Origin: a virus
Lineage: Duplodnaviria; Heunggongvirae; Uroviricota; Caudoviricetes
Strand: one strand, 5' to 3'
IMG/VR virus record: IMGVR_UViG_3300009784_000001
Span: 278,418 to 342,417 of that record
DNA: 64,000 nt
The position numbers and the translations under genes were made by a program. Shown piece by piece: positions 21,603 through 61,371 of this stretch; the stretch's first letter is position 1, and every line of letters begins with the position of its first letter. The notes under the pieces were generated by a model. The model saw nothing but the letters and a program-made list of their open reading frames with translations, did no database searches and was not told the DNA's origin.

Positions 21603-21633
21603 TTTGAAATTAAAAAATAAATTTATATCTTTG
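21603..21633 (+). promoter_or_regulatory. Bacteroidota-type promoter of first tRNA cluster
   Basis: TTTG...TATCTTTG. Confidence 0.75.
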
Positions 21634-21742
21634 CAGTGTAATTCAAATGAATTAGTGTTGAAGTGATAACTGAGTAAGAACATGATACTTCAAATAAATG
21701 TAGTGAGAGATGTACAGCTTTATTCATTTTTTTAGATAAGGT

Positions 21743-21864
21743 TCCCCTGTAGCTCAGTTGGTTAGAGTACTTAAAATGAAGTTTTCTGGGTAGGAAATGT
21801 TCAGCAATATCAATCAAAATCGCTGTTAACGAAGGGGTCGGCAGTTCGAGTCTGTCCAGGGGTT
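21743..21864 (+). tRNA. tRNA-Asn(GTT)-like with 48-nt insertion in anticodon stem
   Basis: Normal D and T arms; removing 21773-21820 gives CTTCG-CTGTTAA-CGAAG. Confidence 0.75.
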
Positions 21865-21911: not shown

Positions 21912-21968
21912 AGAAAACATACAGCATTTTTTATCAATTCAACCATAGGAAAGAAAAAGTGTTTTCTG
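21912..21968 (+). ncRNA. CAGCA-stem RNA, copy C
   Basis: AGAAAACA-TACAGCA...TGTTTTCT-G. Confidence 0.6.
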
Positions 21969-22355: not shown

Positions 22356-22484
22356 AGGAAAGGTACAGCAAATTGAATTAAAATTCTATTTACAATTTTA
22401 CTATGAGGAAGAGAGCTTTCATCTAAAATAGGTGGAAAACAACTCTCAAAGAAATGAGTACTTCTCTAAAAACTCTCTTTCCTG
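22356..22484 (+). ncRNA. CAGCA-stem RNA, copy D (long interior)
   Basis: AGGAAAG-GTACAGCAA...CTTTCCT-G. Confidence 0.55.
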
Positions 22485-23168: not shown

Positions 23169-23289
23169 TGAGAATTAGCTCAGTTGGTAGAGCAAAGGTA
23201 TTATAAAAAGTTTCTTGAATAAGAAATGTTCAGCAATATTTAAAAATGGGAACTTTATGTCAGCAGTTCGAGCCTGCTATTCTCATCCA
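23169..23289 (+). tRNA. tRNA-like gene (TGG loop) with about 45-nt insertion in anticodon loop
   Basis: TGAGAAT/ATTCTCA-T-CCA, normal D/T arms, AAGGT/ACTTT stem. Confidence 0.7.
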
Positions 23290-24179: not shown

Positions 24180-24210
24180 TTTGGTAACTCAAAAATAATT
24201 CTTATCTTTG
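24180..24210 (+). promoter_or_regulatory. Bacteroidota-type promoter
   Basis: TTTG...TATCTTTG. Confidence 0.75.
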
Positions 24211-24231: not shown

Positions 24232-24419
24232 CGAGAGGTAGCTTAATGGCAGAGCGCAGTCGGAATGTAAAATTGCAATTTAATGTTCTTAAACAAGACT
24301 GAATGGTGTGCTGTGAAAGTTTGAAAAAAGTGAATACAAACTGAATGGGGTTGCAAACCTTGCAAGTTATGATGCTTGAAGTAGAATGAGTAATTGAGGT
24401 TCAATTCCCACCCTCTTGA
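24232..24419 (+). ncRNA. enlarged tRNA-like RNA (about 188 nt)
   Basis: CGAGAGG/CCTCTTG acceptor, D arm, CAGTC/GACTG stem, GGTTCAATTCC T loop. Confidence 0.65.
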
Positions 24420-25895: not shown

Positions 25896-25968
25896 GTACC
25901 TGTGGCAGAGTGGTTTATGCACTTGACTGTTAATCAAGACTACGAAGGTTCGATCCCTTCTGGGTACG
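25896..25968 (+). tRNA. tRNA-Asn(GTT)
   Basis: CTTGA-CTGTTAA-TCAAG. Confidence 0.9.
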
Positions 25969-27850: not shown

Positions 27851-27932
27851 AGGAAAGATACAGCAATGTTAAATGGTTAAAAGAAAATTCTGTAAAAATT
27901 TTTTGAAAAGGTTCAAATCCTATTCTTTCCTG
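27851..27932 (+). ncRNA. CAGCA-stem RNA, copy F, tRNA-Tyr(GTA)-like
   Basis: AGGAAAG-ATACAGCAA, AAAATT-CTGTAAA-AATTTT, AGG-TTCAAAT-CCT, CTTTCCT-G. Confidence 0.7.
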
Positions 27933-28162: not shown

Positions 28163-28247
28163 GGAAAGTAAACCTATAAGGTGTAGGAACCGCCTGCTAA
28201 GCGAGTTGTACAATTAAATGTATGTGAATCGTGTTCACTGCTCTCCG
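28163..28247 (+). tRNA. tRNA-Ser(GCT), non-canonical T arm
   Basis: CGC-CTGCTAA-GCG, long variable arm, G73. Confidence 0.75.
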
Positions 28248-28288
28248 CAAAAGTTCTTTGAAATTGTTGGTTAATTATAAATTATTAT

Positions 28289-29432: not shown

Positions 29433-29443
29433 CAAGATAATAA

Positions 29444-29516
29444 GGGATAGTAACATAGAAGTTTATGTGCTGGTCTGAAAAACCAGAAATGCTTGAGGCG
29501 GTATCAGCCTATCCCA
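29444..29516 (+). tRNA. tRNA-Phe(GAA), non-canonical T loop
   Basis: CTGGT-CTGAAAA-ACCAG. Confidence 0.8.
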
Positions 29517-57388: not shown

Positions 57389-59335
57389 ATGAATAAAGTA
57401 ATTGGAATAGACCTTGGAACGACTAATTCGTGCGTTTCAGTTATGGAAGGGAATAATACAGTTGTTATTCCAAATAATGAAGGAAGAAATACAACTCCTT
57501 CAATTGTTGCGTTTATAAATGATAGTGAAAGAAAAGTTGGAGAACCTGCGAAACGTCAAGCAGTAACTAATCCTACAAAAACTATTTCATCCATTAAGCG
57601 TTTTATGGGTGAAAAATATAGTAATCTTGGAAAGGAAATTGAAAGAGTTTCTTATAAAGTTGATAAAGGTACAAATGATCTACCTAAAGTAGATATTGAT
57701 GGAAAACTTTATTCTCCTCAAGAAATTTCAGCAATAATTCTTCAAAAAATGAAAAAGACTGCTGAAGATTATCTTGGTCAAGATGTAAAAGAAGCTGTTA
57801 TTACAGTTCCTGCTTATTTTTCAGATGCTTCAAGACAAGCAACAAAAGAAGCTGGTGAGATAGCTGGTTTAAAAGTTTTAAGAATTATAAATGAGCCAAC
57901 AGCAGCAGCATTAGCTTATGGTTTAGATAAATCAGATAAAGACAAGAGAATTGCTGTATTTGATTTAGGTGGAGGTACATTTGACATTTCTATTCTTGAA
58001 TTAGGTGGTGGTGTATTTGAAGTAAAATCAACAAATGGTGATACACATTTAGGTGGTGATGATTTTGATCATGTTCTTGTTGATTGGTTAGCAGATGAAT
58101 TTAAAAAAGATGAAGGAATTGATATAAGAAAAGATCCAATGGCAGCACAACGATTGAAAGAGGCTGCTGAGAAAGCTAAAATTGAATTATCAAGTTCTTC
58201 TTCAACAGAAATTAATTTACCATATATTATTCCTGTAGATGGAATACCTAAACATTTAGTAAAAACATTAACTCGTGCTAAATTTGAACAATTATGCGAT
58301 AATCTAATTAAAGCAACTATTAAACCATGCGAAAAAGCATTAGAAGATGCTGGATTGAAGCCATCTGATATTGATGAAGTTATTTTGGTTGGAGGTTCTA
58401 CTCGTATTCCTACTGTTCAAGATACAGTTGAAAAGATATTTGGAAAAGTTCCTTCTAAAAATGTAAATCCTGATGAAGTTGTTGCAGTTGGGGCAGCTAT
58501 TCAAGGTGCAGTTCTTACAGGGGAAGTAAAAGATGTTTTATTACTAGATGTAACACCTCTTTCCCTTTCTATTGAAACAATGGGAGGAATAGCGACTAAA
58601 TTAGTTGAGTCCAATACAACTATTCCTTGTAAAAAATCAGAAATATTTACTACAGCAGTTGATAATCAACCAGCGGTTACAGTTAGAATTTGTCAAGGAG
58701 AACGTTCATTGTTTAATGATAATAAACAAATTGGAGTATTTAATTTGGATGGAATTTTACCTGCAAGACGTGGTACACCACAAATTGAGGTTGTATTTGA
58801 TATCGATTCAAATGGTATATTGAATGTTTCTGCAACAGATAAAGGAACAGGAAAAGAACAACATATTACTATTGAAGCATCAAGTGGTTTATCTCAAGAT
58901 GAAATTGATAGAATGAAAAAAGAGGCTGAACAGTTTAAGAAACAAGATGAAGAAGAAAAAGTTAAAATTGAAAAGTTAAATAAAGCCGATTCTTTAATAT
59001 TTCAAACTGAAAAACAATTTGAAGAATTTGGAAATAAATTAACAGAAGATGATAAAAAAGAATTTCAACCAATATTGGATGAATTGAAAGAAGCTGTTAA
59101 AAATAAAAATGTTGATAAAGTTGATTCTCTTGAAAAACAATTGAATGATATATGGGTAAAGTTATCTGCTAAATTATATTCACAAAGTAATGGTAATCAA
59201 GGAAATAGTAGTAATCCATTTGGAGAAGGATTTAATTTTGATGATTTGATGAAGAATTCACAAGCTGGAGCAGCTTCCAACAATAATTCACAATCATCTG
59301 ATGTACAAGATGTTCCTTTCGAGGAAGTAAAATGA
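57389..59335 (+). CDS. dnaK: chaperone DnaK
   Basis: [18 protein letters not shown], full length. Confidence 0.97.
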
Positions 59336-59575
59336 TAATTTTAAGCTAAAAAATTTGGTAATGTAGAGATAAATTTATATTTTTGCATTACCATTTTTAA
59401 TAATTTTAGTTATGAATAATTTTGAAAAAATTATATTAGTTTGTTTTCTTATTGAACTCATTACTTATGGGATAGCTGGCTACATAGCTGGTTGGGTAAG
59501 AAATGTATGGTTTTCATTTAAATTATACATACCATTTTATAATATTTATTATACTTTAACATCAAAAGATACAAT

Positions 59576-59845
59576 ATGAAAAAGTTAATTTTTATTTTTA
59601 TATTACTTTTAATTATAATTTCCTGTTCTGAAGAAAAAGGAACATATATAATGATTTATAAAGTTTATTATTCTGCTGAACATGTAGTAACTGATACATT
59701 AAAAAGTAATTCTGCATTTATTTATGATTCTGATAAAGGAACAAATTATATATTTGAAGATAATCATTTTTTGTTAAAAACAACAGCACCAATAGAAATT
59801 ATAGAGAATACTTTCATACCAGATAATTCATCTGAAAATAAATAA
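59576..59845 (+). CDS. lipoprotein
   Basis: IISC lipobox, KGTN..TTAPIEI shared with 53831. Confidence 0.7.
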   Translation: MKKLIFIFILLLIIISCSEEKGTYIMIYKVYYSAEHVVTDTLKSNSAFIYDSDKGTNYIFEDNHFLLKTTAPIEIIENTFIPDNSSENK

Positions 59846-59849
59846 AGTT

Positions 59850-60272
59850 ATGAAAACGCTTTCTGTGAAACAACCCTGGAGTACTTTATTATTTTATGGG
59901 AAGGATATTGAAAATAGAAGTTGGAGAACGAATTATAGAGGAGAATTACTAATACATGTTTCTTCTAAACCTTTAATAACTTTAACAGATGCATGGAATA
60001 ATGGCTATTTAACAAGAAAAATAGTTGAATTTATTAAAAATAATAATATTGAGGAGTTTATACTAAATAAATATGGCTTTGAACAATATTGTAAAGGTTT
60101 ACCTACTTCTTGTATATTAGGAAAAGTTACATTAATAGATTGTGTTAGAGATAGCAGATCTATTTGGGCAGAAGAAGATTGTTGGCATTGGATAATAGAA
60201 AATCCTATATTGTTTGATAAGCCAATTGAAAATATAAAAGGAAAATTAAATTTATGGGAATATTATGGCTAA
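59850..60272 (+). CDS. ASCH domain protein
   Basis: LSVKQPW..GKDIENRSW..YRG. Confidence 0.9.
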   Translation: MKTLSVKQPWSTLLFYGKDIENRSWRTNYRGELLIHVSSKPLITLTDAWNNGYLTRKIVEFIKNNNIEEFILNKYGFEQYCKGLPTSCILGKVTLIDCVRDSRSIWAEEDCWHWIIENPILFDKPIENIKGKLNLWEYYG

Positions 60273-61371
60273 AAAAAGTTTATATCAAGTTTTAAATGTT
60301 ACAGAAGAAGAAAAGAAATTACCTCAAGAACAGTTTAATGAAATAATTAAAAAAAGATACAGAGAAAACGCATTGGAAAATCATCCTGATAGGCAACAAG
60401 GGAAATCTGAGGCAGAAAAGAAAATATGTGAAGAAAAATTTAAAGAAGCAGCAGAGGCTTATGAAGTCTTATCAGATGAAAATAAGAGAAGAAATTATGA
60501 TATGACTGGAAGCAATTCTGGTTTTAATTTTTCTCAATTTCATGATGATGATTTAGCAACATTTTTGCATAATTTTATGGGCGGTAATCATTTTGGGTTT
60601 GGTGGTAATTTTGATATGAATACTTCAAGATCACCAAGAATGTATAAAGGAAAAGATGTTACATTTAAGGTTCAATTAAGTATTGATGATGTAATAAATG
60701 GTTGTGAAAAGAAATACAAATATAAAGTAAATAGACCTTGTTCTTATTGTAATGGTGGAGAAAAAACAACTTGCCCTCATTGTAATGGTGCTGGTATAAT
60801 AATCAATACAAGTCAAAGAGGTGGTTTTATAATGCAGCAATCTTCTCCTTGTCCTTATTGTCAAGGAACAGGATTTGTGATTAGTAATAGTTGTTCTTAT
60901 TGCCAAGGAACAGGTTTAAAGGAAACAGAAGAATCTATAACTGTTAAATTCCCAAAAGGAGTAACAATAGGAGATTCATTAATAATTGCAAGTGGAGGTC
61001 ATCATTTACCCCGAAGTATGAATAGTGTTCCTGGTGATTTAAATGTTGTAGTTGGAAATATTGACAGTGGAGAATGGCAAATACAACAATATGATTGTCT
61101 TTTGATGAAAGAAATATCCATTGTTGATATAATTTTAGGTTCAGATATTGAAATCACTGGTATAAGAAAAGAGAAATTAAAAGTTTTTATTCCACGAAAT
61201 ACTAGTAATGAAGCGCATTTTAGGTTAGTTGGAAAAGGATTACCAATGAGAAATTCAAATAGAAATGGAGATGCTTATTTAATTGTTAAATATAAGTTTC
61301 CATCCCAAGAAATTGATAAAGATGATAGGAAAACTCTTGAAAAATTAAAGAAAAGTCCTAATTTTAAATAA
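60265..61371 (+). CDS. dnaJ: chaperone DnaJ
   Basis: HPD, four CxxCxGxG-like repeats. Confidence 0.93.
   Translation: MAKKSLYQVLNVTEEEKKLPQEQFNEIIKKRYRENALENHPDRQQGKSEAEKKICEEKFKEAAEAYEVLSDENKRRNYDMTGSNSGFNFSQFHDDDLATFLHNFMGGNHFGFGGNFDMNTSRSPRMYKGKDVTFKVQLSIDDVINGCEKKYKYKVNRPCSYCNGGEKTTCPHCNGAGIIINTSQRGGFIMQQSSPCPYCQGTGFVISNSCSYCQGTGLKETEESITVKFPKGVTIGDSLIIASGGHHLPRSMNSVPGDLNVVVGNIDSGEWQIQQYDCLLMKEISIVDIILGSDIEITGIRKEKLKVFIPRNTSNEAHFRLVGKGLPMRNSNRNGDAYLIVKYKFPSQEIDKDDRKTLEKLKKSPNFK

What the first reader, a model, noticed from the sequence alone, without database searches (positions are those of the whole stretch)
21743..21864. tRNA-Asn with a 48-nt insert in the anticodon stem
Excising 21773-21820 restores a perfect CTTCG-CTGTTAA-CGAAG arm. 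The insert is too small for a group I/II intron and shows no obvious bulge-helix-bulge. An intact tRNA-Asn exists at 25896, so this may be a chimeric RNA rather than a spliced tRNA.
Basis: seen in the sequence. Interest (0 to 1): 0.7.

Follow-up and report, generated by a model that had tools for sequence, protein, structure and literature searches.

The report
tRNA-shaped partner RNA of phage Ro60
This jumbo-phage gene is an old asparagine tRNA gene that carries a 48-base docking module, found in many phages together with a Ro60-like ring protein, so it is most likely a tRNA-shaped partner RNA for that protein (an undescribed cousin of bacterial Y RNAs) and not a tRNA with an intron.

Summary
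Observation confirmed. Removing 48 nt gives a clean tRNA-Asn(GTT) cloverleaf, and that exact anticodon arm occurs uninterrupted in other phages' tRNA-Asn. The insert is a module: a 7-bp covarying stalk followed by RYWCAGCAA. It recurs in a second tRNA-shaped gene (23169) and four free-standing hairpins in this window, in 43 distinct tRNA-ordered RNAs elsewhere, and in 12 circularly permuted (YrlA-order) RNAs. Phage records with the module carry a DUF2828/DUF7788 gene in 33 of 50 cases, against 2 of 43 control tRNA-bearing records. This genome has one too, 57 kb away, and its model has the Ro60 fold (Z 24). Three syntenic orthologs keep the module but switch the anticodon GTT/TGT without matching acceptor identity, and intact Asn and Thr tRNAs lie nearby. 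Best reading: an unspliced, tRNA-ended, Y-RNA-like partner of the phage's Ro60-like protein (0.7). Binding, expression and function are not shown; no RNA reads were available, so splicing is not excluded (0.12). It lacks the YrlA motif, and I found it in neither Rfam nor the searchable papers. This scan has reported the same family before on other phage DNA.

The parts
21604..21633 (+). Bacteroidota-type promoter (TTTG ... TATCTTTG), the likely start of the transcript
   Evidence: Sequence. The same motif precedes the other tRNA blocks at 24203, 25306, 29907 and 31166. The consensus is from my own knowledge; function is inferred.
21743..21864 (+). Whole tRNA-ordered RNA gene (122 nt), derived from tRNA-Asn
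   Evidence: conserved in syntenic orthologs L205, L206, L208
21743..21772 (+). 5' acceptor strand, D arm, A26 and upper anticodon strand (2-3 bp, pairing with 21832-21834)
21773..21820 (+). 48-nt inserted module (boundary ambiguous by one base: site 28/29 or 29/30)
21781..21798 (+). 7-bp stalk (strand B, 4-nt loop, strand A)
   Evidence: RNAalifold finds it unprompted on 40 relatives, with 5-19 double-sided changes at each of the 7 pairs. Own-versus-cross pairing 84% vs 7.7%.
21799..21807 (+). Conserved unpaired motif RYWCAGCAA, the putative protein-binding site
   Evidence: The motif was part of my search patterns, so its invariance is partly by selection.
21821..21831 (+). Mini anticodon hairpin (2-3 bp, loop CTGTTAA; TGT anticodon in two orthologs)
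21835..21864 (+). Variable region, T arm, 3' acceptor strand and U73 (followed by CAA, no CCA)
21912..21968 (+). Free-standing family member (strand A, motif, cargo, strand B)
   Evidence: Best but non-significant RF01414 hit in the genome.
22356..22484 (+). Free-standing family member with long cargo
23169..23285 (+). Second tRNA-ordered member; non-canonical loop AATGGGA, U73, CCA
   Evidence: orthologs in L093 and L208
27788..27841 (+). Free-standing family member
27851..27932 (+). Free-standing member whose cargo is an anticodon-like hairpin (GTA) plus a T loop, with no D arm or acceptor
   Evidence: ortholog in L208

Best explanation
The gene encodes an unspliced RNA of about 122 nt that is a tRNA-shaped partner of the phage's Ro60-like (DUF2828/DUF7788) protein. 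Shown: a tRNA body with intact elbow nucleotides; a covarying stalk plus motif inserted in the 5' strand of the anticodon stem; the same module in three topologies; co-occurrence with a protein whose model has the Ro60 fold. Inferred: it is transcribed with the tRNA array and trimmed at its tRNA ends by host RNase P and 3' nucleases. The split anticodon stem forms around the looped-out module, the stalk and motif dock on the Ro60-like ring, and the tRNA body is displayed. As with Y RNAs, the RNA would act as a tether or gate that brings the ring to tRNA-recognising proteins (nucleases, ligases, PNPase). In this phage the most likely job is tRNA protection or repair during infection. It would not decode.
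For: Same module in free-standing RNAs with no tRNA to splice, four in this window. Same parts in permuted YrlA order in 12 distinct RNAs, some with the acceptor closed by a 2-7-nt loop, and in cultured Enterococcus phage EFDG1 directly upstream of DUF2828. DUF2828 in 33/50 records (12/15 near-complete) against 2/43 (2/23) controls, Fisher p=3e-10, not corrected for relatedness; the RNAs often lie within 1 kb of the gene. This genome's 533-aa protein: pLDDT 91.7; the top 13 Foldseek hits are 12 chains titled Ro/Ro60/Rsr plus 9kop, the phiLo Ro60 crystal structure; Z 24.2, rmsd 4.0 over 423 residues to 1yvp. Orthologs switch GTT/TGT on acceptors with U73 or A73 and no G1-C72/C2-G71. Family-wide only 20/43 loops are canonical, and acceptor identity mostly disagrees with the anticodon: G73 in 2/5 Asn, Thr pairs in 1/7, A20 in 0/3 Arg. 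Intact Asn-GTT and Thr-TGT tRNAs are present. Precedent: PMC4201824 and PMC12135203.
Against: The motif is not the YrlA GNCGAAN0-1G motif. The Ro60-like gene is 57 kb away here, not adjacent as in most relatives. Three near-complete records with the module had no PF11443 hit. A perfect 5-bp stem with canonical spacing is restorable in 79% of members, and U33/R37/A38 are kept in 29, 42 and 39 of 43, which a spliced tRNA would also show. The genome has an RNA ligase.
Confidence: 0.7

Rival explanations
1. The module is a new kind of protein-spliced mini-intron. An unknown nuclease, possibly helped by the Ro60-like protein, cuts it out at 28/29 or 29/30 and the phage RNA ligase joins the halves to give a tRNA. 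Permuted members would mature like permuted tRNA genes.
For: Excision restores a natural phage tRNA-Asn arm. 79% of members are restorable to 5/5 with canonical spacing. An Rnl2-type ligase is encoded, and RtcB or RNA ligase genes lie near DUF2828 in some cultured phages. Unexplained tRNA introns are known from Lak phages (bioRxiv 10.1101/356790).
Against: The product would have U1.U72 and U73, and one ortholog has a C28.A42 mismatch. 23/43 loops are non-canonical. There is no single insertion site, the linkers vary (8-23 nt and about 1-16 nt), and there is no junction consensus beyond a weak TA. Most module-bearing RNAs have no tRNA body. No EndA or RtcB in the genome. Intact isoacceptors are already present.
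Confidence: 0.12
2. The RNA is mainly a bait for host anticodon nucleases. It shows an anticodon loop on a broken stem that binds or diverts the nuclease, and the Ro60-like protein only stabilises it. This is a specific version of the best explanation.
For: Anticodon-loop features are conserved. U36 occurs in 23/43 members, and the commonest canonical anticodons are GTT, TGT and TTT. These are the three reported PARIS AriB targets (PMC12409363), and TGT is the P2-OLD target (PMC12445682). Orthologs switch between GTT and TGT.
Against: AriB is reported to read U36-A-A-U39, and this RNA has C39. Many members have degenerate loops or none. The counts are not phylogenetically independent, and the host's defence systems are unknown.
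Confidence: 0.12
3. A decaying tRNA pseudogene into which a repeat was inserted, with no function.
For: U1.U72 mismatch, no CCA, and redundancy with an intact tRNA-Asn. The minimum-energy fold of the single sequence is no better than shuffles (z -1.2).
Against: The design is conserved in syntenic orthologs, with compensatory acceptor changes and an insert better conserved than the acceptor. There are 43 distinct members with covarying stalks.
Confidence: 0.04

Closest known systems
YrlA-type bacterial and phage Y RNAs bound by Ro60/Rsr (Chen et al. 2014, PMC4201824; Rfam RF02553; phage phiLo Ro60-Yrl complexes, PMC12135203)
   Same: A tRNA-like D/T/acceptor domain joined to a stem plus conserved motif that sits where the anticodon arm is; several RNAs per genome; accompanies a Ro60-fold protein. 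Permuted family members have YrlA order.
   Different: The motif is RYWCAGCAA, not GNCGAAN0-1G. The protein is DUF2828/DUF7788, not PF05731 TROVE (0/50 records). This member is in normal tRNA order with true tRNA ends and keeps an anticodon hairpin. No RF02553 match on the element. The protein gene is 57 kb away.
Dictyostelid Class I RNAs (Kjellin et al. 2021, PMC7919456; Rfam RF01414)
   Same: Short stem with variable sequence, an unpaired conserved motif beside the 5' strand (C6, C9, A10, A11 shared), variable cargo, and a UGU after the 3' strand. The free-standing copy at 21913-21968 is the best RF01414 hit in 360 kb.
   Different: That hit scores 15.1 bits (E 1.15) against a cut-off of 41.5. 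Motif position 3 is a purine, not T. Class I RNAs have no tRNA body, and their reported partner is the RRM protein Rnp1A. Homology is not shown.
'Enigmatic' tRNA introns of Lak megaphages (Devoto et al., bioRxiv 10.1101/356790)
   Same: Short inserts in jumbo-phage tRNA genes whose removal restores a cloverleaf.
   Different: Some Lak introns are themselves tRNA-like and are identical across cohorts. Here the insert is a stalk and motif that also exists free-standing, and acceptor identity does not follow the anticodon. I did not compare the Lak intron sequences directly.
Archaeal non-canonical BHB introns and permuted tRNA genes (own knowledge)
   Same: Inserts in the anticodon stem and permuted gene orders exist.
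   Different: No BHB at the junctions and no EndA gene.

Membership tests
YrlA-type Y RNA (RF02553) | GNCGAAN0-1G Rsr-binding motif near the 5' stem | tested here: not met
   The conserved motif is RYWCAGCAA; YrlA motif from PMC4201824
YrlA-type Y RNA (RF02553) | Match to the Rfam model | tested here: not met
   No RF02553 hit on 21743-21864 at E<=10; only a partial 20.7-bit hit across tRNA-Leu and the second member
YrlA-type Y RNA (RF02553) | tRNA-like D and T arms with elbow nucleotides | tested here: met
   U8, A14, G15/C48, G18-G19, T loop present
YrlA-type Y RNA (RF02553) | Permuted order (T arm, closed acceptor, D arm; ends in the Ro-binding stem) | tested here: not met
   This gene is in normal tRNA order; 12 relatives are in YrlA order
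Y RNA (functional class) | Ro60-fold protein encoded in the same genome | tested here: met
   DUF2828/DUF7788 gene at genome 357212-358813; model matches Ro60, Z 24.2. PF05731 itself is absent.
Y RNA (functional class) | Encoded within about 4 kb of the Ro60 gene | tested here: not met
   57 kb away in this genome; adjacent in many relatives
Y RNA (functional class) | Physically bound by the Ro60 protein | not testable with these tools
   Needs EMSA or RIP; the complex tool does not take RNA partners
Group I / group II tRNA intron | Ribozyme core, size above about 200 nt, junction consensus | tested here: not met
   48 nt; no Rfam intron hit; junction bases vary
BHB (EndA-spliced) intron | Bulge-helix-bulge at the junctions and a splicing endonuclease | tested here: not met
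   Consensus fold shows a closed stalk and unpaired linkers; PF01974 absent
Spliced tRNA-Asn | Excision restores a canonical cloverleaf | tested here: met
Spliced tRNA-Asn | AsnRS identity (G73 with GUU) | tested here: not met
   U73 and U1.U72; the intact tRNA-Asn at 25896 and the uninterrupted relatives mostly have G73. Identity rules from my own knowledge.
Spliced tRNA-Asn | Spliced RNA detected | not tested
Dictyostelid Class I RNA (RF01414) | Score above the family cut-off; T3, C6, C9, A10, A11 motif | tested here: not met
   Best 15.1 bits against 41.5; 4 of 5 motif positions shared

The most novel reading that the evidence does not exclude
The stalk-plus-motif module is the signal of an undescribed phage tRNA-splicing route. 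It is cut out of the anticodon stem, perhaps conditionally and with the Ro60-like protein as scaffold, and the phage RNA ligase seals the halves, so that tRNA-ordered and permuted genes yield working tRNAs.
Probability: 0.1. Interest if true: 0.85.

Novelty: new variant of a known kind. Interest (0 to 1): 0.55.

Why it matters
DUF2828 Ro60-like genes occur in 703 cultured phage records (FelixO1-like, Listeria, Staphylococcus, Enterococcus, Campylobacter and cluster L mycobacteriophages). I found no described RNA partner for them. If the module is their binding site, it defines a second Ro60-RNA system with its own motif and three RNA topologies, including full tRNA-ended molecules that annotators call pseudo-tRNAs or intron-containing tRNAs. 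That would explain one class of 'enigmatic' phage tRNA inserts. It can be tested directly in laboratory phages (EFDG1, FelixO1, Synechococcus phage B3). It also offers a testable lead on the orphan dictyostelid Class I RNAs.

Tried and rejected
Canonical TROVE (PF05731): absent from this genome and 0/50 relatives; the link appeared only with DUF2828. RtcB and EndA: absent. Sequence search of the 533-aa protein against PDB gave nothing significant; only fold comparison found Ro60. Two strict DNA patterns found no IMG/VR match, blastn of the element against cultured phages hit only the D arm, and the neighbouring ORF found no IMG/VR relatives; orthologs came from protein-to-contig look-ups. ARAGORN's intron mode calls the gene tRNA-Phe with a 42-nt intron; rejected, because orthologs and uninterrupted alleles support the other register and an intact tRNA-Phe lies at about 29443. 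Single-sequence folding is not significant. The sigma-70 promoter scan was at chance level. The RF01414 match is not significant. Literature searches for DUF2828 and for Ro-like phage RNAs returned no description of the family; most subscription papers are not searchable.

Full report
Setting. The window is part of a complete 359,943-bp phage genome with an array of more than 25 tRNAs. Promoter-like sites of the Bacteroidota type (TTTG ... TATCTTTG; consensus from my own knowledge) precede the tRNA blocks, one of them at 21604-21633, which suggests a Bacteroidota host.

Observation. The sequence is as reported. Removing 21773-21820, or equivalently 21772-21819, gives a 74-nt cloverleaf that ARAGORN calls tRNA-Asn(gtt). 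The joined anticodon arm occurs uninterrupted in six other phage tRNA-Asn genes, five of them with G73 and CCA. The gene therefore descends from a real phage tRNA-Asn. Its own acceptor has a U1.U72 mismatch, U73 and no CCA, while the intact tRNA-Asn at 25896 has G73.

The insert is a module. It reads: A-rich linker, strand B (21781-21787), 4-nt loop, strand A (21792-21798), the motif GTTCAGCAA (21799-21807), and an AU-rich linker. The same module sits in a second tRNA-shaped gene at 23169-23285. Four free-standing elements nearby (21912, 22356, 27788, 27851) carry it in the other order: strand A, motif, cargo, strand B. The one at 27851 has an anticodon-like hairpin and a T loop but no D arm or acceptor, so nothing could be spliced into a tRNA there.

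The family. Pattern scans of IMG/VR, metagenomes and GTDB contigs gave 43 distinct tRNA-ordered members at under 85% identity. A stalk pairs in 84% of candidates with their own strand, against 7.7% with another member's. RNAalifold predicts acceptor, D arm, a 7-bp stalk and T arm, with double-sided changes at all seven stalk pairs. The motif was in my patterns, so its invariance is partly selected. A 5/5 anticodon stem is restorable in 79% of members (16% for swapped halves), at site 28/29 in some and 29/30 in others. Twelve distinct RNAs have the same parts in YrlA order, with the acceptor closed by a loop as short as 2-4 nt. A permuted copy lies upstream of DUF2828 in cultured Enterococcus phage EFDG1. 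A tRNA-ordered copy with a degenerate motif, annotated as a pseudo-tRNA, lies downstream of DUF2828 in Synechococcus phage B3.

Orthologs of this gene. Three syntenic copies (L205, L206, L208) keep the module almost unchanged while the acceptor varies with compensation. Two have anticodon GTT and two TGT. None has G73, and none has the G1-C72/C2-G71 pairs of tRNA-Thr. One has a mismatch in the restorable stem, and one has an extra hairpin in the T-arm region. Across the family only 20 of 43 loops are canonical, and identity mostly disagrees with the anticodon (identity rules from my own knowledge). U33, R37 and A38 are nonetheless largely kept, so the loop appears to be under selection to look like an anticodon loop.

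The partner protein. TROVE (PF05731) is absent here and in 50 relatives. DUF2828 is present in 33 of those 50 records (12 of 15 near-complete), against 2 of 43 control records chosen for an ordinary tRNA (2 of 23). Fisher p is 3e-10, without correction for relatedness. One of the two control positives has a free-standing element beside the gene. This genome encodes a 533-aa DUF2828/DUF7788 protein at 357212-358813. Its AlphaFold model (pLDDT 91.7) matches Ro60 structures over the whole length: the top 13 Foldseek hits, and Z 24.2, rmsd 4.0, 423 residues to 1yvp. Homologues occur in 703 cultured phage records, some already annotated 'Ro-like RNA binding protein', often beside tRNA arrays and sometimes near RtcB or RNA ligase.

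How it most likely works. Shown: anatomy, conservation, three topologies, co-occurrence, and the protein fold (predicted). Inferred: the RNA is cut from the array transcript at its tRNA ends and stays unspliced. The split anticodon stem forms around the looped-out module, the stalk and motif bind the Ro60-like ring, and the tRNA body engages tRNA-recognising proteins, as Y RNAs tether Rsr to PNPase (PMC4201824) and as phage phiLo Ro60 with its Yrl RNAs engages host PNPase (PMC12135203). I put this at 0.7. The decoy version (0.12) rests on the enrichment of GTT, TGT and TTT anticodons, which are reported AriB and OLD targets, but C39 does not fit AriB's U36-A-A-U39. Splicing (0.12) stays open because the stem is restorable, an RNA ligase is encoded and I had no reads. 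Against it are the mismatched identities, the variable site and linkers, the free-standing forms, and the absence of EndA and RtcB.

Comparison with what is known. It works like a Y RNA by inference, but it is not a YrlA: the motif, protein family and order differ, and there is no Rfam match. It resembles dictyostelid Class I RNAs in layout and in four of five key motif positions. The free-standing neighbour is the best RF01414 hit in the genome but far below the cut-off. It is not a group I, group II or BHB intron. I found no paper describing the family.

Earlier scan notes. I suspected a Y-RNA-like chimera before looking them up. The notes show that the scan has reached the same reading on other phages, and they supplied the Class I lead and the hint that the protein is Ro60-like rather than canonical. 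I tested these claims myself. New here are the orthologs with a switched anticodon, the uninterrupted ancestral arm, the control for co-occurrence, and a case where the RNAs and the protein gene are far apart.

Verdict. A real, conserved non-coding RNA; a new variant of the Ro60/Y-RNA kind; interest 0.55.

Noticed in passing
window 24232-24419: An RNA of about 188 nt with tRNA acceptor, D and T arms and roughly 110 extra nt in the middle; Rfam tRNA 21 bits; no CAGCA motif, so a different kind of oversized tRNA-like gene.
   Followed up: no
genome C1 52286-52411, minus strand (L083): tRNA-like gene that ARAGORN reads as tRNA-Thr(TGT) with a 48-nt intron. The insert is unrelated to this module, there is no Rfam hit, and it may also read as a short anticodon-like arm plus a long variable region.
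   Followed up: partly
window about 29443-29513 and 28163-28248: A tRNA-Phe(GAA)-like gene and a tRNA-Ser(GCT)-like gene missed by default ARAGORN and Rfam, so the array appears to cover all 20 amino acids.
   Followed up: partly
window 21700-21720: A motif-like remnant just upstream of the finding. Orthologs L205, L206 and L208 have a complete free-standing element between this point and the tRNA-shaped gene, which this genome lacks.
   Followed up: partly
L074, L080 near DUF2828: Free-standing elements whose cargo includes an initiator-tRNA-like anticodon hairpin (loop CTCATAA); a recurring AATGG word follows the motif in several members.
   Followed up: no
window 57389-61371: Phage-encoded DnaK-like and DnaJ-like genes, recognised from their N-terminal sequence only.
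   Followed up: no
genome C1 355845-356546 (L071:89-790): A stand-alone vWA-domain gene two ORFs upstream of the Ro60-like gene.
   Followed up: partly
L433, L440 (GTDB contigs): Family members occur on contigs binned into archaeal MAGs (Pacearchaeota, Methanobrevibacter). The first has the same length (425,361) as an IMG/VR phage record, so these are probably mis-binned phage contigs.
   Followed up: no
L079/L338 (control record G079): A DUF2828 gene with in-frame TGA, suggesting a recoded phage; a free-standing element lies downstream.
   Followed up: no
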